A stretch of 28,845 nt of DNA, taken from the UHGV virus genome UHGV-0374663. The stretch is one strand, 5' to 3'. This stretch comes from a virus. The notes below the pieces were generated by a model. It searched no databases and was not told the origin of the DNA. It was given only the letters and a program-made list of their open reading frames with translations. A program made the position numbers and the translations under genes. Within the stretch, counting starts at the first letter, position 1; each line of letters begins with the position of its first letter. Shown in pieces: positions 1 to 10,937 of the stretch.

Positions 1-1014
1 TTATCGAATCGTTAAACCACCCTTTAGTGGGTTTAACGCTACTGCGTTTTGCAGGTAATCAGGCGCAAGGTGCGCATAGGCCATCGTCTGCTGAATGCTC
101 GCATGCCCCAGAATCTGTTGCAGTGCAATTATGTTGCCCCCATTCATCATGAAATGACTTGCGAATGTATGTCGCAGGATATGGGTTGCCTGATTGGGTG
201 GTATATCAGGTTTCACTCTGCGTAAAATCCCGCAAAACTTCTCATAATCAACTTTGAATAATTTGGCACTGGCCTCCTCTTTAACTTTTTTCTCCAGTTC
301 CTCAGAAATCGGCACGGTTCGCTTTTTACCGTTTTTGGTTTTCAGGAAGGTAACCCTGCAATTTGTAATCTGTGCTGGTTTTAGCGTGGCAACTTCCGTC
401 CATCTTCCTCCAGTGCTCAGACATAAAAGCGCGACAAGTAAGTCATCACCAGCCAAAACATTTAACAGTTTTTCGATTTCTGCTTTTTCCAGGAACGTCA
501 TTTCAGGGTTGGCCTCCGTCAGTGGCGGCAGTCCGTGAATTGGGTGTTGCCCGGAAAATTCATCCAGTTGAATTAATTTTGTGAACATGCCGGATAATCG
601 GTATATGTCACGATTTATCGTTGCAGCACTGATGCCATCACGCAGTCGCATGGAGCGATAATCCATCAAAGCCCTTTTGTTCATCCGGCTCACCGGTATA
701 TCACCTATACCGCTGATGGTTTTGAGTAGATGATTAAACTCTTTTGTCCCATGCTCGTGGTTTTGCCCGTGATATTTCCACCAGATGTCGAGCAATTCTG
801 TCAAAGTTCGGCGGTCTGCTCGCTGGCCTGCCCATTCTTTCTGACTGGCATTGGCGATTGTGTATCGCTCAAATGCTACAGCCTCAGCTTTTCTTTCAAA
901 CTTCCTGCGGATGCGTTTTCCGTCGCGACCGCGAGGTCTAATGTCCACTTCATAGCGTCCATCATCGAGCTTCTTAATTGACATAAGAAAGCCCTCTGAC
1001 GCTGTATTCACCAT
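1..1014 (-). CDS. int: Tyrosine integrase (P2 Int-like)
   Basis: 337-aa ORF with C-terminal tyrosine-recombinase motifs (HILRHTFASHF...LGHASIQQTMAYAHL). An alternative start at 984 (MSIKK...) has a better GAGG Shine-Dalgarno; the 337-aa length from 1014 matches P2 Int as I recall it. Confidence 0.9.
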   Translation of the reverse strand: MVNTASEGFLMSIKKLDDGRYEVDIRPRGRDGKRIRRKFERKAEAVAFERYTIANASQKEWAGQRADRRTLTELLDIWWKYHGQNHEHGTKEFNHLLKTISGIGDIPVSRMNKRALMDYRSMRLRDGISAATINRDIYRLSGMFTKLIQLDEFSGQHPIHGLPPLTEANPEMTFLEKAEIEKLLNVLAGDDLLVALLCLSTGGRWTEVATLKPAQITNCRVTFLKTKNGKKRTVPISEELEKKVKEEASAKLFKVDYEKFCGILRRVKPDIPPNQATHILRHTFASHFMMNGGNIIALQQILGHASIQQTMAYAHLAPDYLQNAVALNPLKGGLTIR

Positions 1015-3256: not shown

Positions 3257-3528
3257 GTATTCGTATTGAAATTGGCGAACGTTATGTCGTTACCAGTGAC
3301 AGCTTTCAGTTTATTCTCCACGAGAAAAAGAGAGCTGAAAGCGGTAAAAACGCCGGTCAGGAATGGCTGGCGGTGGTTGGTTATTACCCGAAATTAAGCC
3401 AGCTCGTTTCCGGCATGATGCATCACGATATTCTGACCGGAAGCGCAAAGTCTTTTGCTGATTTAAACGCGCAGGTTGAGCAACTCAGCAAGCGTTGTTC
3501 AGAGGCTTTTGGCTCATATGGCCGTTAA
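3253..3528 (+). CDS. Early hypothetical protein (P2 orf83 position)
   Basis: 91-aa ORF; its stop overlaps the start of gene A. Confidence 0.55.
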   Translation: MSIRIEIGERYVVTSDSFQFILHEKKRAESGKNAGQEWLAVVGYYPKLSQLVSGMMHHDILTGSAKSFADLNAQVEQLSKRCSEAFGSYGR

Positions 3529-5794
3529 AGCCTCCGGGCGTTTTGTCCCTCCGTCAGCATTTGCCGCAGGCACCGGTAAGGCGTTTACCGGTGCTTATGC
3601 ATGGAACGCGCCACGCGAGGCTGTCGGGCGCGAAAGACCCCTTACACGTGACGAGATGCGTCAGGTGCAAGGTGTTTTATCCACGATTAACCGCCTGCCT
3701 TACTTTTTGCGCTCGCTGTTTACTTCACGCTATGACTACATCCGGCGCAATAAAAGCCCGGTGCACGGGTTTTATTTCCTCACATCCACTTTTCAGCGTC
3801 GTTTATGGCCGCGCATTGAGCGTGTGAATCAGCGCCATGAAATGAACACCGACGCGTCGTTGCTGTTTCTGGCAGAGCGTGACCACTATGCGCGCCTGCC
3901 GGGAATGAATGACAAGGAGCTGAAAAAGTTTGCTGCCCGTATATCATCGCAGCTTTTCATGATGTATGAGGAACTCTGCGATGCCTGGGTGGATGCGCAT
4001 GGCGAAAAAGAATCGCTGTTTACGGATGAGGCGCAGGCTCACCTCTATGGTCATGTTGCTGGCGCTGCACGTGCTTTCAATATTTCCCCTCTCTACTGGA
4101 AAAAATACCGTAAAGGACAGATGACCACGAGGCAGGCATATTCTGCCATTGCCCGTCTGTTTAACGATGAGTGGTGGATTAGTCAGCTTCAAGGCCAGCG
4201 TATGCGCTGGCATGAGGCGTTACTGATTGCTGTCGGGGAGGTCAATAAAGACCGTTCTCCTTATGCCAGTAAACATGCCATTCGTGATGTGCGTGCACGC
4301 CGCCAGGCAAATCTGGAGTTTCTTAAATCGTGTGACCTTGAAAATAAGGAAACCGGCGAGCGCATTGACCTTATCAGTAAGGTGATGGGCAGTATTTCTA
4401 ATCCTGAAATTCGCCGGATGGAGCTGATGAACACCATTGCCGGTATTGAGCGTTACGCCGCTGCAGAGGGTGATGTGGGGATGTTTATCACGCTGACCGC
4501 GCCGTCAAAGTATCACCCGACACGTCAGGTCGGAAAAGGAGAAAGTAAAACCGTCCAGCTTAATCACGGCTGGAATGATGAGGCATTTAATCCAAAGGAT
4601 GCGCAGCGTTATCTCTGCCGTATCTGGAGCCTGGTGCGCACGGCATTCAAAGATAATGATTTACAGGTCTACGGTTTGCGAGTCGTCGAGCCACACCACG
4701 ACGGAACGCCGCACTGGCATATGATGCTTTTTTGTAATCCACGCCAGCGTAACCAGATTATCGAAATCATGCGTCGCTATGCGCTCAAAGAGGATGGCGA
4801 CGAAAGAGGAGCCGCGCGAAACCGTTTTCAGGCAAAACATCTTAACCGGGGCGGTGCTGCGGGATATATTGCTAAATACATCTCAAAAAATATCGACGGC
4901 TATGCACTGGATGGTCAGCTCGATAACGATACCGGCAGGCCGCTGAAAGACACTGCAGCGGCTGTTACCGCATGGGCGTCAACGTGGCGCATCCCACAAT
5001 TTAAAACGGTTGGTCTGCCGACAATGGGGGCTTACCGTGAACTACGCAAATTGCCTCGCGGCGTCAGCATTGCTGATGAGTTTGACGAGCGCGTCGAGGC
5101 TGCACGCGCCGCTGCAGACAGTGGTGATTTTGCGTTGTATATCAGCGCGCAGGGCGGGGCAAATGTCCCGCGCGATTGTCAGACTGTCAGGGTCGCCCGT
5201 AGCCCGTCGGATGACGTTAACGAGTACGAGGAAGAAGTCGAGAGAGTGGTCGGCATTTACGCGCCGCATCTCGGCGCGCGTCATATTCATATCACCAGAA
5301 CGACGGACTGGCGCATTGTGCCGAAAGTGCCGGTCGTTGAGCCTTTGACGTTAAAAAGCGGCATCGCCGCGCCTCGGAGTCCTGTCAATAACTGTGGAAA
5401 GCTCACCGGTGGTGATACTTCGTCACCGGCTCCCACGCCTTCTGAGCACGCCGCAGCAGTGCTTAATCTGGTTGATGACGGTGTTATCGAATGGAATGAC
5501 CCGGAGGTCGTGAGGGCGCTCAGAGGTGCATTAAAACACGAACTGAGAACACCAAATCGTCAGCAGAGAAACGGAAGCCCGTTAAAACCACATGAAATAG
5601 CGCCATCGGCCAGACTGACCCGGTCGGAACGAATGCAAATCACCCGTATCCGCGTTGACCTTGCTCAGAACGGTATCAGGCCTCAGCGATGGGAGCTTGA
5701 GGCGCTGGCGCGTGGCGCGACAGTAAATTATGACGGAATAAAATTCACGTATCCTGTCGCTGATGAGTGGCAGGGATTCACAATGGACCATTGA
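3518..5794 (+). CDS. A: Replication initiation endonuclease A (rolling-circle Rep, HUH family)
   Basis: ORF-track frame 3476..5794; start MAVKASGRF at 3518 matches the P2 gpA N-terminus as I recall it. HUH motif PHHDGTPHWHMMLF and active-site tyrosine region AKYISKNIDGY are present. Confidence 0.92.
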   Translation: MAVKASGRFVPPSAFAAGTGKAFTGAYAWNAPREAVGRERPLTRDEMRQVQGVLSTINRLPYFLRSLFTSRYDYIRRNKSPVHGFYFLTSTFQRRLWPRIERVNQRHEMNTDASLLFLAERDHYARLPGMNDKELKKFAARISSQLFMMYEELCDAWVDAHGEKESLFTDEAQAHLYGHVAGAARAFNISPLYWKKYRKGQMTTRQAYSAIARLFNDEWWISQLQGQRMRWHEALLIAVGEVNKDRSPYASKHAIRDVRARRQANLEFLKSCDLENKETGERIDLISKVMGSISNPEIRRMELMNTIAGIERYAAAEGDVGMFITLTAPSKYHPTRQVGKGESKTVQLNHGWNDEAFNPKDAQRYLCRIWSLVRTAFKDNDLQVYGLRVVEPHHDGTPHWHMMLFCNPRQRNQIIEIMRRYALKEDGDERGAARNRFQAKHLNRGGAAGYIAKYISKNIDGYALDGQLDNDTGRPLKDTAAAVTAWASTWRIPQFKTVGLPTMGAYRELRKLPRGVSIADEFDERVEAARAAADSGDFALYISAQGGANVPRDCQTVRVARSPSDDVNEYEEEVERVVGIYAPHLGARHIHITRTTDWRIVPKVPVVEPLTLKSGIAAPRSPVNNCGKLTGGDTSSPAPTPSEHAAAVLNLVDDGVIEWNDPEVVRALRGALKHELRTPNRQQRNGSPLKPHEIAPSARLTRSERMQITRIRVDLAQNGIRPQRWELEALARGATVNYDGIKFTYPVADEWQGFTMDH

Positions 5795-5903
5795 TGATTA
5801 ACATGAAAGAATTATGGAGCTTGCTTATATCGTGTTATGTCAGTTTACTGGATACAGGGCAAGTGAATGCCCCTTTCCATGAATTAGATTAAAGGCTTGC
5901 AAA

Positions 5904-7235
5904 ATGAACAATAACAGTCAGAAAGCTTTGAGTAAGAAGAAAACCAAGAAAACCAAAAAGAAGTCGCTTACCCCTGAACAAAAAGCATTGCAAGCAGAAC
6001 AAGCAGCAAAAAAAGCGCAAATTATAGAGAATAGGCGCTCTATTACAGCTCATGCTATTAACCTTTTTCAGCAATATACAGCACTCCGTAAAAAAGGATT
6101 AGATAGTTCCACTGCTACTTTGCAAGCTTATGCTGATTATGAAAAAGTACATGGACATAAATTCCTTAGTTCTATCTCTATGTGGACAAAAATCAAAACT
6201 GAAGCAGGGATTCGGATCTATGATCGTGAGAGACAAGATAGTCGTAAATCGCTTAATCTTGCTAAGATCCCAACCCGTTTAGAGGCTAAGCGTAGTGTAC
6301 TGACACAGAATCAAAAGAAAGTACATAACCAGAATGCAAATACATTACGCTTAATCGGTGGCAAAAAGCTACCTGTAACATCTATGGGGCTTATTGTATG
6401 TCCTGTCTGCGAGATACATATAAAAGATAGTGCTATAGAGTGGCATTTACGACACAACCACGTAGATCATATAGATAACCCGTTTACTAACCCTATAGTA
6501 GCTCCGGTTGATACTTTAGAAGAGGCTGTAGAAATACGAGACCTACTAATTGGTGATAAAACACTTCCGATTAAATCTAGTACTATTAATATGGGGAGTG
6601 ACAAGAAAGATAAACGTTATTTTAATAAGCAAGTTTATCAAACGGCATTGCTAACAATGACACAATCAGAAGCGTGGAAACTCGCGACTGATGAAGAATC
6701 TAGTATGACTTTTTTAAGCAATCAGTACATAAGTCCATTAACATCACCGGAACCCAATAATGAAATATCTCTTATCATGGATGGAACAGCTATAGCCATT
6801 AATGAAGGTCTAACTAATCCTTTAAAAGCCGCAAACGATACCTGTGCTACAGGACGAACAGTCGAGGTTACTCATAAAGTCCGTCATGCTGGAGATCAAG
6901 CTGATTTCAAACGCCGTGTTTGGGATAACTTCAATGGCAGATGTGCTATTACTGGCTATCCATTGCCAGAGGGGATATTGGAAGCCGCACATATTGAAGC
7001 AATAACAGAAGCGGCAAATAATAACACATCTAATGGCCTGTTACTTGAAGTAAGTTTGCACCGAATGTTTGATAAAGGATTGATGGGGATTAATCCAGAG
7101 GACTTAACGGTTCATTTCTCTATTAATTGTATCCACAAAACTATGTTTGAGGGTAAAACTCTACAACCACATCATGTAGAACTTGATGCTGACAAGTTGA
7201 TGACAAAATGGAAAAAGTTCAATGATAAGCGTTAA
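5904..7235 (+). CDS. Cargo protein: Lys-rich N-terminus + Zn-finger-like motif + C-terminal HNH nuclease domain
   Basis: 443-aa ORF in an AT-rich segment. HNH motif CAITG...LEAAHI...NGLLLEVSLHRMFDKG (aa 347-391, nt 6942..7073). C166-x2-C169-x11-H181-x2-H184-x-H186 motif (nt 6399..6470). Low-complexity KKKTKKTKKK at aa 11-20. Shine-Dalgarno-like AAAGG upstream of the ATG. Confidence 0.8.
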   Translation: MNNNSQKALSKKKTKKTKKKSLTPEQKALQAEQAAKKAQIIENRRSITAHAINLFQQYTALRKKGLDSSTATLQAYADYEKVHGHKFLSSISMWTKIKTEAGIRIYDRERQDSRKSLNLAKIPTRLEAKRSVLTQNQKKVHNQNANTLRLIGGKKLPVTSMGLIVCPVCEIHIKDSAIEWHLRHNHVDHIDNPFTNPIVAPVDTLEEAVEIRDLLIGDKTLPIKSSTINMGSDKKDKRYFNKQVYQTALLTMTQSEAWKLATDEESSMTFLSNQYISPLTSPEPNNEISLIMDGTAIAINEGLTNPLKAANDTCATGRTVEVTHKVRHAGDQADFKRRVWDNFNGRCAITGYPLPEGILEAAHIEAITEAANNNTSNGLLLEVSLHRMFDKGLMGINPEDLTVHFSINCIHKTMFEGKTLQPHHVELDADKLMTKWKKFNDKR

Positions 7236-7326
7236 CATGACTTCTTCTGGCGCAGCGAGGCATTAGATTTAATTATGTATTATGATTTAATTTGGGGCGT
7301 GATTTGTTATATGGGGAATAGATTAT

Positions 7327-7746
7327 ATGGTGACGCTTGATACTGTTTATTGGAAATTTGGTTATGCTTCGGAAGCAGCTCAATTACTGGAGACTGAGTT
7401 GATAAATATTATCACTGAGTATGATATGAGTCAGGGGAAAGATATACAGTCGCTGAAAAAACAGTTTTTAGAAATGGATAAATACACGCTGGGTAGATTG
7501 AATTACGCACTGAAGTCTAGGATGGTGGAGGATGCTGATACACTGGAGCGTGTGTCTGATGCTCTTAAAGCCAGAAACTACTTAGCACATGACTTTTATC
7601 GCAAACATGCTGAAGGTAAATTCACTCCGGAAGGAAGGCAGAGAATGCTTGCCGACTTAAATAGTGTACATCACATAATTTTTGAGGCTTACCGCAAGGT
7701 TCTGCAACTAAGCGACATTGAAATTCCTCCTTTAGAGCATGATTAA
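7327..7746 (+). CDS. Cargo protein 2: small hypothetical protein, likely co-transcribed with the HNH protein
   Basis: 139-aa ORF 91 bp downstream of the HNH gene on the same strand, same AT-rich composition, GGGGAA Shine-Dalgarno 8 nt upstream; no motif recognised. Confidence 0.65.
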   Translation: MVTLDTVYWKFGYASEAAQLLETELINIITEYDMSQGKDIQSLKKQFLEMDKYTLGRLNYALKSRMVEDADTLERVSDALKARNYLAHDFYRKHAEGKFTPEGRQRMLADLNSVHHIIFEAYRKVLQLSDIEIPPLEHD

Positions 7747-7874
7747 ATCTTGCATGCATTAGATGCATTGGTTTGCATGCATCATTCGTTATTTTCATTT
7801 TCGAGTGCCGTCAGTGTCGGCATGGTTTTGACGGATTCATACATGTGCATTAAAACCTCCCCATGAAGCGGGCG

Positions 7875-7893
7875 GGCGAGGCGGGGAAAGCAC
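7875..7893. other. cos site (P2-type 19-nt cohesive end GGCGAGGCGGGGAAAGCAC)
   Basis: Exact match to the P2 cohesive-end sequence as I remember it, located between the cargo region and the 3' end of portal gene Q, where the virion right and left ends are joined in a prophage. Confidence 0.7.
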
Positions 7894-8035
7894 TGCGCGC
7901 TGGCGGTGGTGCTGATTTTATTTTTTCAGCGTCTGAGCGCGTCGTGATGGCGTTTAGATTGTGCGCCGGGGCGTTGGTTTGTCTGCGGGCTGTTTTGCGC
8001 GGTGGTGAGCGTGTGAGGGCGTGATGACGGGTTGT

Positions 8036-8058
8036 AAAAAAGCCGCCCGCAGGCGGCG
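8036..8058 (-). terminator. Rho-independent terminator downstream of Q
   Basis: On the minus strand: GCCGCC-(4-nt loop)-GGCGGC followed by TTTTTT, beginning 5 nt after the Q stop codon. Confidence 0.6.
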
Positions 8059-8062
8059 ATGT

Positions 8063-9097
8063 TCAGCCGTTGTCAGTGTCCAGTGAGTAGTTTTTAAAGC
8101 GGATGACCTCCTGACCGAGCCAGCCGTTTATCTCGCGGATCCTGTCCTGTAACGGGATAAGCTCATTGCGGACAAAGACCTTTGCCACTTTCTCAATATC
8201 TCCCAGTGACCCGACGTTCTCCGGCTTGCCGCCCATCAACTGAAAGGGGATGCGGTGTGCGTCCAGCAGGTCTGCGGCGCTGGCTTTTTTGATATTAAAA
8301 AAATCGTCCTTCGTCGCCACTTCACTGAGCGGGATAATTTTAATGCCGTCGGCTTTCCCTTGCGGGGCATAGAGAAACAGATTTTTAAAGTTGTTGCGGC
8401 CTTTCGACTTCACCATGTTTTCGCGGAGCATTTCGATATCGTTGCGATCCTGCACGGCATCGGTGACGTACATGATGTATCCGGCATGTGCGCCGTTTTC
8501 GTAATACTTGCGGCGGAACAGCGTGGCCGACTCATTCAGCCAGGCAGAGTTAAGGGCGCTGAGATATTCCGGCAGGCCGTACAGCTCCTGATTAATATCC
8601 GGCTCCAGCAGGTGAAACACGGAGCCGGGCGCGAAAGGTGTCGGCTCATGGAAGGACGGCACCCACCAGTAAACATCCTCTTCCACGCCACGGCGGGTAT
8701 ATTTTGCCGGTGAGGTTTCCAGTCTGATGACCTTACCGGTGGTGCTGTAACGCTTTTCCAGAAACGCATTACCGAACACCAGAAAATCCAGCACAAAGCG
8801 GCTGAAATCCTGCTGGGAAAGCCACGGATGCGGGATAAATGTCGAGGCCAGAATATTACGTTTGACGTAAATCGGTGAGCTGTGATGCACGGCAGCACGC
8901 AGGCTTTTTGCCAGACCGGTAAAGCTGACCGGTGGCTCATACCATCTGCCGTTACTGATGCACTCGACGTAATCCAGAATGTCACGGCGGTCGAGTACCG
9001 GCACCGGCTCACCAAAGGTGAATGCCTCCATTTTCGGGGCGCTGGCGGTCATTTTTTTTGCCGCAGGTTGCGGTGTTTTCCCTTTTTTCTTGCTCAT
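8063..9097 (-). CDS. Q: Portal protein
   Basis: 344-aa ORF, same length as P2 gpQ; adjacent to cos and overlapping the P stop. Confidence 0.95.
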   Translation of the reverse strand: MSKKKGKTPQPAAKKMTASAPKMEAFTFGEPVPVLDRRDILDYVECISNGRWYEPPVSFTGLAKSLRAAVHHSSPIYVKRNILASTFIPHPWLSQQDFSRFVLDFLVFGNAFLEKRYSTTGKVIRLETSPAKYTRRGVEEDVYWWVPSFHEPTPFAPGSVFHLLEPDINQELYGLPEYLSALNSAWLNESATLFRRKYYENGAHAGYIMYVTDAVQDRNDIEMLRENMVKSKGRNNFKNLFLYAPQGKADGIKIIPLSEVATKDDFFNIKKASAADLLDAHRIPFQLMGGKPENVGSLGDIEKVAKVFVRNELIPLQDRIREINGWLGQEVIRFKNYSLDTDNG

Positions 9098-10869
9098 CAG
9101 TAAAACTCCAGAATGGTGGATGTCAGCGGGGTGCTGATACCGGCGGTGAGTGGCTCATTTAACAGGGCGTGCATGGTCGCCCAGGCGAGGTCGGCGTGGC
9201 TGGCTTCCTCGCTGCGGCTGGCCTCATAGGTGGCACTGCGTCCGCTGCTGGTCATGGTCTTGCGGATAGCCATAAACGAGCTGGTGATGTCGGTGGCGCT
9301 GACGTCGTATTCCAGACAGCCACGGCGGATGACGTCTTTTGCCTTGAGCACCATTGCGGTTTTCATTTCCGGCGTGTAGCGGATGTCGCGCGCGGCGGGA
9401 TAGAACGAGCGCACGAGCTGGAACACGCCGACACCGAGGCCGGTGGCATCAATACCGATGTATTCGACGTTGTATTTTTCGGTGAGTTTGCGGATGGATT
9501 CAGCCTGGGTGGCAAAGTCCATGCCTTTCCACTGGTGACGCTCAAGTATTCTGAATTTGCCACCGGCCACCACCGGCGGTGCCAGCACCACGCATCCGGC
9601 ACTGTCGCCACGGTGTGACGGGTCGTAACCAATCCAGACCGGGCGGGAGCCGAACGGATTGGCGGCAAACGGCGCATAGTCTTCCCATTCTTCCAGCGTG
9701 TCGACCATGCAGCGTTGCAGCTCCTCGAACGGGAACACCGACGCCTTGTCGTCAACAAATTCACACATGAACAGGTTTTTAAAATCGTCGGCGCTGTTTT
9801 CGCGTTTGAGCTGCTCAATGTCGAACAGCGTGCAGCCGCCTTTCAGGGCGTCCTCAATGGTGACAATCTGCCGCCACTGACCGTCCGCACAGAGAAGACC
9901 ACCGGAAAGGGCGTTATGACTGACGTCGATTTCCACGCGTTCGGCGGCGCTGGCGCGTCCCCGGTTGAACAGTTCACCCGACCAGAACGGATAGGCGTCG
10001 TGCGCCAGCGTGGACGGGGTGGAGAAATAGGTCGAGCGCAGGTGACTCTGTGAGGCCATACCTGATGCCACCTTACGCAGTACCTGAAAATTCGGGATCC
10101 AGAAAATCTCATCGACGTACAGGTCGCCGTTATGACTCTGTGCGGTGTTGGAGTTGGTGCCGAGAAAAATCAGTTTTGCGCCGTTATTGCCCAGGACAAT
10201 CGGGTCACCGGTCAGGTCAACGTCAACCAGACGGGCAAAGGCGATGATGTATTCACGGAATACATACGCCTGCGTTTTACTGGCCGACAGAAAAATCTGG
10301 TTATGACCGGTTTTCAGGGCGCGCAGCAGCGCCTCGCGGGAAAAATAAAACGTTGCGCCAATCTGACGGGATTTCAGGATATCGCGGATGCGGTGCTCAA
10401 GCCCGGCGCGATACCAGTGCAACTGATAGTCGAAAGACTGCTCAAAGAAAATCTGCTCCAGCTTTTCGATGGCCTCGTCACTGAAAAAATTCTTTTTCGG
10501 TTTGCGCCGCCCGCCTTTGTTGCGGTTAGCGACGTTCGGATTAAGGTCTGCCTCGTTGCCGGTCTGGCTGTAACGATTTACCCGTGCCAGTCGTTCAATC
10601 TGGCGTCCCAGCAGGTCAATTTCCTTGAAGTCACCGCCGGTTTTCTGCGGTTTGATGATGAGCTGGGTCAGTCGCGCTTCCAGACTCATTTCGACACGGC
10701 TGATGGGGGCAACGCTGTCCCAGCCGTCGCGCTGTTTCCAGCTCTGCACCGTCGGGCGTTTCATCTGCAACATGGCGGCAATCTGCGGCACGGAAAACCC
10801 CTGCCAGTACAGCAGCGCCGCCTGACGACGCGGGTCGTGTAAAAGAGTGGTGTCTGTGGTGATGGTCAT
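9097..10869 (-). CDS. P: Terminase large subunit (ATPase)
   Basis: ORF-track frame 9097..10899; the internal start at 10869 (MTITTDTT...) gives 590 aa, the P2 gpP length, with a GAGG Shine-Dalgarno. Confidence 0.93.
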   Translation of the reverse strand: MTITTDTTLLHDPRRQAALLYWQGFSVPQIAAMLQMKRPTVQSWKQRDGWDSVAPISRVEMSLEARLTQLIIKPQKTGGDFKEIDLLGRQIERLARVNRYSQTGNEADLNPNVANRNKGGRRKPKKNFFSDEAIEKLEQIFFEQSFDYQLHWYRAGLEHRIRDILKSRQIGATFYFSREALLRALKTGHNQIFLSASKTQAYVFREYIIAFARLVDVDLTGDPIVLGNNGAKLIFLGTNSNTAQSHNGDLYVDEIFWIPNFQVLRKVASGMASQSHLRSTYFSTPSTLAHDAYPFWSGELFNRGRASAAERVEIDVSHNALSGGLLCADGQWRQIVTIEDALKGGCTLFDIEQLKRENSADDFKNLFMCEFVDDKASVFPFEELQRCMVDTLEEWEDYAPFAANPFGSRPVWIGYDPSHRGDSAGCVVLAPPVVAGGKFRILERHQWKGMDFATQAESIRKLTEKYNVEYIGIDATGLGVGVFQLVRSFYPAARDIRYTPEMKTAMVLKAKDVIRRGCLEYDVSATDITSSFMAIRKTMTSSGRSATYEASRSEEASHADLAWATMHALLNEPLTAGISTPLTSTILEFY

Positions 10870-10937
10870 GAATACCTCGCCGTGATGAATACACGGCAAG
10901 GCTACTGAGTCGCGCCCCGCGATTCGCTAAGGTGCTG

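What the first reader, a model, noticed from the sequence alone, without database searches (positions are those of the whole stretch)
5904..7235. Unusual architecture of the 443-aa cargo protein: poly-Lys N-terminus, CxxC...HxxHxH motif and C-terminal HNH nuclease
Three distinct modules are readable from the translation. (a) A low-complexity Lys-rich stretch (KKKTKKTKKK, aa 11-20), atypical for enterobacterial proteins and suggestive of non-specific nucleic-acid binding. (b) C166-x2-C169-x11-H181-x2-H184-x-H186, a zinc-finger-like motif. (c) A canonical HNH nuclease motif at aa 347-391 (CAITG...LEAAHI...NGLLLEVSLHRMFDKG). The combination looks like a sensor/DNA-binding N-terminal part fused to a nuclease effector rather than a simple homing endonuclease, and I cannot match it to a named defence family.
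Basis: partly seen in the sequence, partly recalled or inferred. Interest (0 to 1): 0.75.

Follow-up and report, generated by a model that had tools for sequence, protein, structure and literature searches.

The report
Prophage zinc-finger HNH nuclease, likely defence
A P2-like prophage of E. coli carries, in its known defence-gene slot, an uncharacterised single gene that joins a eukaryote-style C2H2 zinc finger and a new helical domain to a DNA-cutting HNH domain of the kind used by restriction enzymes that attack modified phage DNA; it is most likely an untested anti-phage nuclease.

Summary
ORF 5904-7235 (+) encodes 443 aa, and all three motifs sit where stated.

Two corrections:
- The 'CxxC...HxxHxH' motif is a C2H2-type zinc finger using C166, C169, H181 and H186. 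H184 is not conserved.
- The protein has more parts than three: a confident four-helix N-terminal domain (aa 24-143) with no detectable relatives, and a conserved helical segment (aa 237-275). It also lacks a 61-codon module that its roughly 500-aa relatives carry.

The gene is low-GC cargo in the gpA-portal/cos hotspot of a P2-like prophage. Relatives occur only in Enterobacterales, always as solitary genes in mobile-element cargo sites. Some of these sites lie next to Gabija, PARIS or a TIR gene. No methyltransferase or constant partner gene accompanies them.

The nuclease domain is closest to the type IV enzymes VcaM4I and TagI, but no known modification-reader domain is present, and no named defence family matches end to end.

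Best reading: a stand-alone, methyltransferase-free, auto-inhibited HNH defence nuclease aimed by a zinc-finger/basic DNA-binding module. Its target is unknown and its function is untested. I class it as a new variant of a known kind, of moderate interest.

The parts
5904..7235 (+). Complete gene for the 443-aa C2H2-zinc-finger/HNH_2 protein (stop codon included).
   Evidence: ORF list and translation. The identical protein is encoded in many E. coli assemblies, always in this slot. dN/dS is 0.23 against the copy in E. coli K_EC180.
5934..5963 (+). Lys-rich tail, aa 11-20 (KKKTKKTKKK).
   Evidence: K11/12/15/16/18 are nearly invariant in the close family. Predicted disordered, pLDDT <50 for aa 1-17.
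5973..6332 (+). N-terminal helical domain, aa 24-143: four long helices (24-63, 68-87, 91-116, 125-143).
   Evidence: AlphaFold2 block pLDDT is mostly 75-96 up to about aa 110 and falls to 57-65 over the last helix. No relative outside the family's own cluster among 1.84 billion representatives. No Pfam hit. No specific PDB fold match. Replaced by unrelated sequence in the wider family.
6390..6461 (+). C2H2-type zinc finger, aa 163-186 (ligands C166, C169, H181, H186).
   Evidence: All four ligands are invariant in the close family. Predicted strand-strand-helix (E163-165, E172-174, H175-185), block pLDDT 77-88. The wider family has the classical C-x2-C-x3-F-x5-hydrophobic-x2-H-x4-H pattern. 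A few relatives reach Pfam zf-C2H2 models weakly. The window copy gives only sub-threshold zinc-finger hits.
6498..6515 (+). Junction of the 183-bp (61-codon) in-frame deletion relative to the ~500-aa relatives. The breakpoint lies at about 6505/6506, inside a TTGATACT microhomology.
   Evidence: Pairwise DNA alignments with four long-form genes (L004, L017, L026, L027) all show one 183-bp gap at the same place, flanked in the long form by TGTTGATACT / GTTTGATACT. Protein alignment.
6612..6728 (+). Conserved helical segment, aa 237-275 (KRYFNKQVYQTAL..TQSEAWKLATDEE). Possible linker or auto-inhibitory element, or a small DNA-binding unit.
   Evidence: Y239, F240, N241, Y245, Q254 and A257-T262 are invariant in the close family. 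Y245 is nearly invariant in 61 sequences. Helices 242-248, 254-262 and 264-275, with the two full ten-residue blocks inside the helices (aa 241-260) at pLDDT 84-85. Similarity to the wider family begins here.
6855..7232 (+). HNH_2 (His-Me finger) nuclease domain, aa 318-443. Pfam core is aa 347-397 (nt 6942-7094). Catalytic residues are H363, N377, H386 and D390.
7327..7746 (+). Neighbouring 139-aa cargo gene of unknown function. It is an independent module, not an obligatory partner.
   Evidence: PHROG 12893, function unknown. No Pfam, PADLOC or PDB hit. Present in 30 of 5426 complete E. coli genomes: 12 alongside the HNH gene and 18 alongside a different three-gene cargo. No homologue near family members outside P2 prophages.
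7875..7893 (+). P2 cos (19-nt cohesive end) bounding the cargo slot on the portal side.
   Evidence: Exact match to the annotated cosL of phage P2, NC_001895 positions 1-19.
3476..5794 (+). gpA replication endonuclease, the left border of the hotspot.
   Evidence: PHROG 91, E 0. RefSeq annotation of the homologous locus.
8063..9097 (-). gpQ portal protein, the right border of the hotspot.
   Evidence: PHROG 68, E 4e-176. Annotation.

Best explanation
The gene is a stand-alone anti-phage / anti-mobile-element nuclease that a P2-like prophage carries as cargo in its gpA-cos-portal defence hotspot.

Proposed mechanism; steps 1, 2 and 4 are inferred by analogy with the solved relatives:
1. The C-terminal HNH_2 domains dimerise and make the double-strand cut, as in VcaM4I and TagI.
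2. In the resting state the nuclease is held off the host chromosome by the preceding conserved helical segment and linker. In VcaM4I the linker helix blocks the DNA groove, and the bare HNH domain is toxic.
3. The N-terminal half brings the enzyme to its substrate. This half comprises the Lys-rich tail, the helical domain and a single C2H2 zinc finger.
4. No methyltransferase or immunity gene accompanies the nuclease in any context seen. Self/non-self discrimination must therefore lie in what the N-terminal module recognises. The most likely target is a feature of foreign DNA that the host lacks, such as a hypermodified base or another phage-specific DNA state. That would make it type IV-like restriction with a new kind of reader.

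Shown here: the gene's position, the domain make-up, intact and conserved catalytic and zinc ligands, purifying selection, solitary occurrence, and defence-island neighbourhoods.

Not shown: any activity, the target, or the phenotype.
For: Location:
- The gene lies between gpA and cos/portal of a P2-like prophage.
- This is the slot that holds old/tin in phage P2 and was shown to be a hotspot of anti-phage systems (PMC9122126; PMC9519451).
- The arrangement 'HNH_2 + hypothetical', including the accession of the 139-aa neighbour, is listed among that paper's P2 hotspot loci.

Cargo character:
- It is low-GC (37.9% against 52.9%).
- It is patchy: 12 of 5426 complete E. coli genomes carry it, while 2155 carry the flanking sequence.

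Relatives sit alone in other cargo sites:
- beside Gabija GajA/GajB in Citrobacter;
- beside PARIS AriA/AriB in an island that also encodes an ArdC-like protein;
- beside a TIR-effector-like gene between the antiterminator Q gene and the lysis genes of lambdoid prophages;
- in islands carrying NACHT, DUF3800 and CbtA genes;
- inside a conjugative transfer gene cluster (TraC/TraG-like genes).
- No methyltransferase gene was called in any of these loci, and the genes flanking the HNH gene differ from context to context.

Nuclease:
- Pfam HNH_2.
- The domain profile hits the 5mC/5hmC-dependent type IV enzyme VcaM4I at E 2.2e-12.
- H363, N377 and H386 are invariant, and D390 is nearly invariant, across 61 relatives.
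- The upstream Q-x2-F helix typical of this subfamily is conserved.

Selection and prevalence:
- dN/dS is 0.23 overall and 0.19-0.27 in each of four segments, against a 97.2%-identical copy.
- The 90% cluster holds 57 sequences; 11 of the 15 members listed are 443 aa (the others are one 446-aa variant and three fragments), together seen on several hundred contigs.

VcaM4I mechanism used for the analogy: PMC7897488.
Against: - No experiment on this family was found. It was not among the systems tested in PMC9122126: there is no 'HNH' in its main text or in its table of tested systems.
- A single C2H2 finger binds DNA weakly on its own and could equally serve a structural or protein-contact role.
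- The structure model is only moderate (mean pLDDT 65, pTM 0.29) and domain packing is not predicted. Auto-inhibition is therefore pure analogy.
- The window copy lacks a 61-residue module that most close relatives have and might be attenuated.
- The promoter scan found no more sites than chance, so expression in the lysogen is assumed.
Confidence: 0.55

Rival explanations
1. Abortive-infection nuclease. The HNH domain is kept inactive. The variable N-terminal domain senses a phage protein or an infection-induced state rather than DNA chemistry. Once triggered, the enzyme degrades host and phage DNA alike and kills the infected cell.
For: - The N-terminal region is the variable part of the family, while the finger, middle segment and HNH domain are kept. 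That pattern is typical of sensors co-evolving with phage proteins.
- No DNA-modification reader was found.
- Neighbours such as PARIS and TIR proteins work by triggered cell death or arrest (PMC9122126).
- The bare HNH domain of the relative VcaM4I is toxic.
Against: - The conserved C2H2 finger and Lys-rich tail point to nucleic-acid contact.
- All solved close relatives of this HNH subfamily are direct restriction enzymes.
- Nothing here distinguishes the two modes.
Confidence: 0.22
2. Selfish free-standing endonuclease. The gene spreads by cutting related phage or island genomes that lack it and being copied in during repair. It gives the host no defence benefit.
For: - HNH nucleases with small DNA-binding modules are common homing enzymes in phages (established knowledge).
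- The gene sits in an intergenic slot between conserved phage genes.
- It recurs at one equivalent slot in lambdoid prophages.
Against: - The family occupies unrelated sites: P2 gpA-cos, lambdoid Q-lysis, conjugative transfer clusters and chromosomal islands. These are general cargo hotspots holding many other genes (PMC9122126).
- The nuclease belongs to the HNH_2 restriction-type subfamily.
- My guess that the long-form insert is an AP2 domain failed its tests.
- No full-length homologue is found in 50,697 sequenced phage genomes.
Confidence: 0.08
3. Decaying or attenuated remnant. The 443-aa form is a deletion product that has lost function and merely persists in the prophage.
For: - It lacks 61 codons present in most close relatives.
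- One E. coli genome has the gene split by an IS3-family element.
- The 199-237 region around the junction is predicted disordered.
Against: - The reading frame is intact, and 11 of the 15 cluster members listed are 443 aa, together on several hundred contigs.
- dN/dS is 0.23, with every segment below 0.3.
- All catalytic and zinc ligands are kept.
- An independent 174-bp in-frame deletion removed nearly the same module in a lambdoid prophage copy. This suggests the module is dispensable or selected against, not that the gene is dying.
Confidence: 0.08
4. Phage housekeeping nuclease: a cos-cleavage or packaging helper of the kind found next to terminase genes in HK97-like phages, or a replication accessory.
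For: - The gene lies about 640 bp from cos and near the portal and terminase genes.
- HNH proteins next to cos and terminase are a known class (PMC3592412 abstract).
Against: - Phage P2 itself lacks it, and 2143 of the 2155 E. coli genomes that carry the flanking sequence lack it.
- It is four times larger than packaging HNH proteins and of a different Pfam family.
- Relatives occur in non-phage islands and conjugative transfer clusters.
Confidence: 0.03

Closest known systems
VcaM4I / TspA15I (EVE-HNH) and TagI (SRA-HNH): NTP-independent type IV modification-dependent restriction endonucleases
   Same: - The Q-x2-F helix comes before the C-x-x-T-G strand, and the catalytic His/Asn/metal ligands align.
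- The overall order is 'recognition part - linker - HNH'.
- It is a single gene with no methyltransferase.
   Different: - The N-terminal reader is not a PUA-superfamily domain. In its place are a Lys-rich tail, a four-helix domain without relatives, a C2H2 zinc finger and a conserved helical segment.
- The linker is long and predicted disordered.
- H386 occupies the position of VcaM4I D250 (alignment).
- Modification dependence is untested.
ScoMcrA-type phosphorothioate-dependent SBD-HNH enzymes (NCBIfam NF045808) and EcoKMcrA
   Same: HNH region only: NF045808 matches aa 331-421.
   Different: - The score is 31.7 bits against a cut-off of 180.
- No sulfur-binding, SRA or McrA N-terminal domain was detected.
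Type IIS restriction enzymes with an HNH_2 catalytic domain (AlwI, HphI, BbrI; group 6 of the His-Me finger classification, PMC5714182)
   Same: - N-terminal recognition part plus C-terminal HNH_2.
- The PADLOC 'Type II restriction enzyme' HNH model matches aa 314-398.
   Different: - No cognate methyltransferase in any of the genomic contexts examined.
- No similarity outside the nuclease domain.
P2 old and tin, and the other cargo of the P2 gpA-gpQ hotspot (Rousset et al. 2022, PMC9122126)
   Same: - Identical genomic slot next to cos.
- Prophage-borne, low-GC, patchily distributed.
   Different: - Unrelated proteins.
- This one was catalogued there only as 'HNH_2 + hypothetical' and was not tested.
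Engineered zinc-finger nucleases (C2H2 fingers fused to FokI) and the bacterial Ros/MucR single C2H2 finger (comparison from general knowledge)
   Same: A C2H2-type finger joined to, or acting with, a DNA-directed function. Like Ros, it has a single finger flanked by basic sequence.
   Different: - It has one finger only, so little sequence specificity is expected.
- The nuclease is HNH, not FokI.
- The wider family has the eukaryote-like C-x2-C-x12-H-x4-H spacing, rather than the shorter Ros spacing that I recall.
- DNA binding is not shown.

Membership tests
HNH_2 (PF13391) His-Me finger nucleases | Sequence match to the family model above the curated threshold. | tested here: met
   E 1.1e-10, 41.6 bits against gathering score 21, model positions 1-66 of 66, aa 347-397. 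All 61 relatives also match.
HNH_2 (PF13391) His-Me finger nucleases | Catalytic His (general base), Asn, and metal-binding His/Asp conserved. | tested here: met
   H363, N377 and H386 are invariant and D390 is nearly invariant in 61 sequences. They align to VcaM4I H224, N241, D250 and D254 (mutational data in PMC7897488).
HNH_2 (PF13391) His-Me finger nucleases | Beta-beta-alpha-metal fold. | tested here: met
   [not shown]
Type IV modification-dependent restriction endonucleases (two-domain, NTP-independent: SRA/EVE/SBD/wH/NEco + HNH) | Nuclease domain of the family's HNH type, on a single polypeptide. | tested here: met
Type IV modification-dependent restriction endonucleases (two-domain, NTP-independent: SRA/EVE/SBD/wH/NEco + HNH) | A recognised modified-base or phosphorothioate reader domain. 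| tested here: not met
   No Pfam, NCBIfam or PADLOC domain N-terminal of aa 311. No PDB sequence or fold match to any reader. A novel reader is not excluded.
Type IV modification-dependent restriction endonucleases (two-domain, NTP-independent: SRA/EVE/SBD/wH/NEco + HNH) | No cognate protective methyltransferase. | tested here: met
   No methyltransferase gene within 5-7 kb in any of the contexts examined.
Type IV modification-dependent restriction endonucleases (two-domain, NTP-independent: SRA/EVE/SBD/wH/NEco + HNH) | Cleavage or restriction that depends on DNA modification. | not testable with these tools
   Needs phage and plasmid challenge and in vitro digestion of modified against unmodified DNA.
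Classical C2H2 zinc finger | C-x2-4-C-x12-H-x3-5-H with conserved hydrophobic core positions. | tested here: inconclusive
   The window copy is C-x2-C-x11-H-x4-H, one residue short. All four ligands are invariant in the close family. Wider-family members show the exact classical pattern, e.g. CIECKIDFKSFGGFVDHTKDVH and CIICRKKFGTVQKLHRHYKKKH. Pfam zf-C2H2 models are reached only weakly by a few relatives (E 0.0004-0.008). The window copy gets only sub-threshold OrsD and zf-Di19 hits.
Classical C2H2 zinc finger | Beta-hairpin plus helix fold around the metal site. | tested here: met
   Predicted strands 163-165 and 172-174 and helix 175-185, at block pLDDT 77-88. Metal binding itself is not testable here.
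Named anti-phage defence systems (PADLOC-DB v2.0.0) | Full-length match to a system's protein model. | tested here: not met
   Only two generic 'HNH' models match, over aa 311-411 and 314-398. The same holds for six relatives.
Type II/IIS restriction-modification with HNH_2 nuclease | Adjacent cognate methyltransferase. | tested here: not met
   None in the window slot or in relatives' loci.
Phage packaging (cos/terminase-associated) HNH proteins | Small HNH protein conserved across the phage lineage next to terminase and needed for cos cleavage. | tested here: not met
   Absent from phage P2 and from all but 12 of the 2155 E. coli genomes that share the flanks. It is 443 aa. Relatives occur outside phages. 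Requirement for packaging was not tested.
HNH-AP2 homing endonucleases | AP2 DNA-binding domain. | tested here: not met
   I suspected the 61-residue insert of the long forms was AP2-like. Pfam gave no hit. PDB sequence and profile searches gave no hit. hhalign against the AtERF1 AP2 domain gave probability 0.7%. The model of the long form is too poor there, pLDDT 26-55, though it shows strand-strand-strand-helix. The window protein lacks the insert anyway.

The most novel reading that the evidence does not exclude
This would be a natural 'zinc-finger nuclease' immune protein and the founding member of a new class of methyltransferase-free restriction enzymes. In this class a eukaryote-style C2H2 finger, together with a previously unseen helical domain, reads a phage-specific DNA feature (a hypermodified base, a DNA end or a replication structure) and releases an auto-inhibited HNH dimer. 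The interchangeable N-terminal domains and the repeatedly deleted 58-61-residue module would tune target range.
Probability: 0.3. Interest if true: 0.65.

Novelty: new variant of a known kind. Interest (0 to 1): 0.5.

Why it matters
- If active, it adds an uncharacterised single-gene system to the prophage-borne immune repertoire of E. coli and its relatives. It sits in the very hotspot where old, tin and several recent systems were found.
- Its recognition half has no known counterpart, so it could reveal a new way of telling foreign from host DNA. It could also provide a new reader domain for modified DNA, which is what made the SRA/EVE-HNH enzymes useful as reagents.
- C2H2 fingers of the classical eukaryotic pattern are rare in bacteria. 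A natural finger-nuclease fusion is of evolutionary and engineering interest.
- The two independent in-frame losses of the same module are a ready-made structure-function experiment.
- If it proves inactive or merely selfish, the finding is an ordinary hypothetical HNH gene in a prophage.

Tried and rejected
1. AP2-like DNA-binding domain for the long-form insert: rejected for lack of support.
3. BFVD viral structures and tblastn against 50,697 phage genomes: only HNH-domain hits, to Salmonella 7-11/SE131-like phages and Pantoea phage Nafs113.
4. Exhaustive HMMER search with aa 22-200: only the family itself, plus a short repeated motif in an unrelated protein.
5. AFDB50 fold search: the library was unavailable.
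6. The 139-aa neighbour as partner or immunity protein: rejected, because it occurs with other cargo and never with family members outside P2.
7. Packaging-HNH role: rejected (see rivals).
8. Promoter and terminator scan of 5600-8200: promoter-like sites are at the chance level (6 found, 6.2 expected); only the portal-side terminator is convincing.
9. ATTAGAT at the three module boundaries: six copies in the window against 1.8 expected, but the region is AT-rich and two shuffles in 100 reach six, so I do not pursue it.
10. Literature searches for C2H2 + HNH defence, for P2-hotspot HNH systems and for the protein accessions: nothing.
Full report
**1. The observation**

The six-frame ORF list contains 5904..7235 (+), ATG start, 443 aa, and it translates cleanly. 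A script confirmed every stated residue:
- KKKTKKTKKK at aa 11-20;
- a single CxxC at C166/C169;
- H181, H184 and H186;
- C347, H363, N377 and H386.

The gene is 37.9% GC in a 52.9% GC window. Pfam gives HNH_2 (PF13391) at aa 347-397, E 1.1e-10, 41.6 bits against a cut-off of 21.

**2. Genomic setting**

The window is a P2-like prophage. It encodes the following (RefSeq annotation of a homologous E. coli locus):

| Feature | Coordinates |
|---|---|
| integrase | 1-1014 (-) |
| gpA replication endonuclease | 3476-5794 (+) |
| portal | 8063-9097 (-) |
| terminase | 9097-10899 (-) |
| capsid genes | downstream of the terminase |

- The 19-nt P2 cohesive end is present unchanged at 7875-7893.
- The 443-aa gene and a 139-aa gene (7327-7746) therefore fill the gpA-cos-gpQ slot.
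- That slot holds old and tin in P2. It was shown to be a hotspot of anti-phage systems in E. coli (PMC9122126; PMC9519451).
- The supplementary locus table of the first paper lists 'HNH_2 + hypothetical' arrangements, including the accession of the 139-aa neighbour. No HNH system appears in its main text or its table of tested systems.

The identical protein is encoded in many E. coli assemblies, always in this slot. Sources name it only 'HNH endonuclease'. Among 5426 complete E. coli genomes, 12 carry the gene at 97.2% nucleotide identity, while 2155 share the flanking sequence. One of the 12 copies is interrupted by an IS3-family element.

**3. Anatomy**

AlphaFold2 with a 61-sequence alignment gave a moderate model (mean pLDDT 65, pTM 0.29).

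| Residues | Predicted feature | Confidence (pLDDT) |
|---|---|---|
| 1-17 | disordered Lys-rich tail | <50 |
| 24-143 | four long helices | blocks mostly 75-96, falling to 57-65 over the last helix |
| 163-185 | strand-strand-helix unit carrying C166, C169, H181, H186 | 77-88 |
| 199-237 | disordered | <50 |
| 242-275 | three short helices | 84-85 for the two blocks inside them (aa 241-260) |
| 275-330 | disordered linker | <50 |
| about 329-441 | HNH domain | medium |

In the 13-member close family, C166, C169, H181 and H186 are invariant, whereas H184 is replaced by Arg in two members. The motif is therefore a C2H2-type finger, C-x2-C-x11-H-x4-H.

In the wider family the finger has the classical pattern C-x2-C-x3-F-x5-hydrophobic-x2-H-x4-H, and one member has two fingers. 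53 of 58 family sequences carry such a finger about 195-255 residues before the catalytic His. A few reach Pfam C2H2 models weakly.

**4. The nuclease**

- The whole-protein search of PDB sequences found only VcaM4I, weakly.
- A 24-sequence profile of aa 318-443 hit VcaM4I (6yex) at E 2.2e-12.
- In the alignment, H363 aligns with the VcaM4I catalytic H224, N377 with N241, H386 with D250 and D390 with D254.
- H363, N377 and H386 are invariant, and D390 nearly so, across 61 relatives.
- NCBIfam's phosphorothioate-restriction model and two PADLOC 'HNH' models match only this domain, far below full-length scores.

**5. The rest of the protein has no known relatives**

- Pfam finds nothing in aa 1-155 or 201-311.
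- An exhaustive HMMER search of 1.84 billion cluster representatives with aa 22-200 found only the family's own cluster. The one other hit matches a short motif, GGKKLPVTSMGL, to a five-fold repeat in an unrelated protein.
- Foldseek against PDB gave nothing below E = 1.
- BFVD and tblastn against 50,697 phage genomes gave only HNH-domain hits.

**6. The family**

- Homologues with the full architecture occur only in Enterobacterales: Escherichia, Citrobacter, Pectobacterium, Buttiauxella, Enterobacter, Salmonella, Klebsiella, Serratia, Pantoea, Cronobacter and Edwardsiella.
- The close group shares the whole length. A larger group of 440-500-aa proteins shares only aa ~160-443 or ~238-443 and has unrelated N-termini.
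- The finger, the middle helical segment and the HNH domain are the constant core. The N-terminal domain is exchangeable.

**7. The window copy is a deletion variant**

- Most close relatives are about 500 aa and carry an extra segment after the finger.
- DNA alignments with four long-form genes show one 183-bp (61-codon) in-frame gap in the window gene, at about 6505/6506. In the long form it is flanked by the microhomology TTGATACT.
- In a lambdoid prophage lineage, a 449-aa copy differs from its 510-aa sibling by an independent 174-bp in-frame deletion with a different junction (plus a 9-bp indel in the Lys-rich region); the aligned positions are 99.85% identical.
- The short form is not decaying. 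Its frame is intact, and 11 of the 15 cluster members listed are 443 aa, together seen on several hundred contigs. dN/dS against the E. coli K_EC180 copy is 0.23, and 0.19-0.27 in each of four segments, although this rests on only 37 differences.
- I suspected the insert was an AP2 domain. Every test failed or was inconclusive, so I leave it as a module of unknown fold.

**8. Context of relatives**

Family genes are solitary and sit in cargo sites of different mobile elements:
- next to Gabija in a Citrobacter island (GajA/GajB confirmed by PADLOC);
- next to PARIS in an island that also encodes an ArdC-like protein;
- between the antiterminator Q gene and the lysis genes of lambdoid prophages, next to a TIR-effector-like gene;
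- in islands with NACHT, DUF3800 and CbtA/CbeA genes;
- inside a conjugative transfer gene cluster (TraC/TraG-like genes).

No methyltransferase gene was called in any of these loci, and the genes flanking the HNH gene differ from context to context.

The 139-aa gene is not a partner:
- It occurs in 30 E. coli genomes, 18 of which pair it with a different three-gene cargo.
- It has no homologue near family members outside P2.

**9. Interpretation**

Four observations point to a single-gene defence nuclease:
- a restriction-type HNH domain with intact catalytic residues;
- no methyltransferase or immunity gene;
- residence in validated defence hotspots and next to known systems;
- patchy distribution, low GC and purifying selection.

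By analogy with VcaM4I, I infer that the HNH domains dimerise and are auto-inhibited by the preceding helical segment and linker. In VcaM4I the nuclease domains dimerise, a linker helix blocks the DNA groove, and the isolated HNH domain is toxic. I further infer that the Lys-rich tail, helical domain and C2H2 finger supply the substrate contact that releases the nuclease. What is recognised is unknown.

- A host-absent DNA modification (type IV-like restriction) is the most economical guess. However, the defining reader domain of type IV enzymes was tested and not found.
- An abortive-infection mode, triggered through the variable N-terminal domain, is the main rival.
- Selfish homing, a decayed remnant and a packaging role are less likely, for the reasons given under the rivals.

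**10. Comparison and novelty**

It works like, and shares its nuclease with, the two-domain type IV HNH enzymes. It cannot be filed as one, because no reader domain is recognisable and modification dependence is untested. It is not a type II/IIS enzyme (no methyltransferase), nor any named PADLOC system.

The gene is annotated generically in databases and was catalogued, untested, in the P2 hotspot survey. The combination of a C2H2 finger, a novel helical domain and an HNH_2 nuclease has not been described in the searchable literature.

I rate it a new variant of a known kind, interest 0.5. It is a solid, testable candidate. It is not a surprise in kind, and its function is still inferred.

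Noticed in passing
window 7327-7746 (+): The 139-aa neighbouring cargo gene (PHROG 12893, function unknown) has no Pfam, PADLOC or PDB hit. It carries a conserved R83-N-Y-L-A-H88 motif in all three variants compared, which resembles the Rx4-6H signature of HEPN RNases (my recollection, not tested). It occurs in 30 of 5426 E. coli genomes, with two different cargo sets.
   Followed up: partly
window 7265-7277 and 7738-7750: A 13-nt inverted repeat (AGATTTAATTATG / CATGATTAAATCT, 92% complementary) brackets the 139-aa gene. The heptamer ATTAGAT sits just before the HNH gene (5883), just after it (7262) and just after the 139-aa gene (7758). These could be module-exchange junctions or chance in AT-rich DNA.
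   Followed up: partly
L106 6001-7350 versus L017 6001-7533 (lambdoid prophages): A second, independent in-frame deletion (174 bp, different junction) removes nearly the same module from a copy whose aligned positions are otherwise 99.85% identical. The two genes also differ by a 9-bp indel inside the Lys-rich repeat.
   Followed up: yes
window aa 146-164 of the 443-aa protein (nt ~6339-6395); protein P0091: The stretch TLRLIGGKKLPVTSMGLIV, just before the zinc finger, matches a motif (GGTPVPISSMSLVG) repeated five times in an unrelated 302-aa metagenomic protein (E 3.6e-10). Meaning unknown.
   Followed up: no
L013 and L014, 2605-3612: Some P2-like prophages carrying the identical HNH cargo have an extra 335-aa PAPS-reductase-family gene just upstream of gpA. 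The window lacks it.
   Followed up: no
L015 7333-8755; NZ_CP080235.1 (hits H30/H64): Insertions disrupt the cargo in some strains. About 1.3 kb is inserted between the HNH gene and the 139-aa gene in one assembly, and an IS3-family transposase splits the HNH gene in E. coli W13-16.
   Followed up: no
L020 2079-2531 (-): In one E. coli island, a family member (P0014) lies 4.5 kb from a small HNH_3 + AP2 protein, which is a classical homing-type endonuclease. A second family paralogue (P0028) is reported on the same 861-kb contig.
   Followed up: no
[not shown]
   Followed up: no
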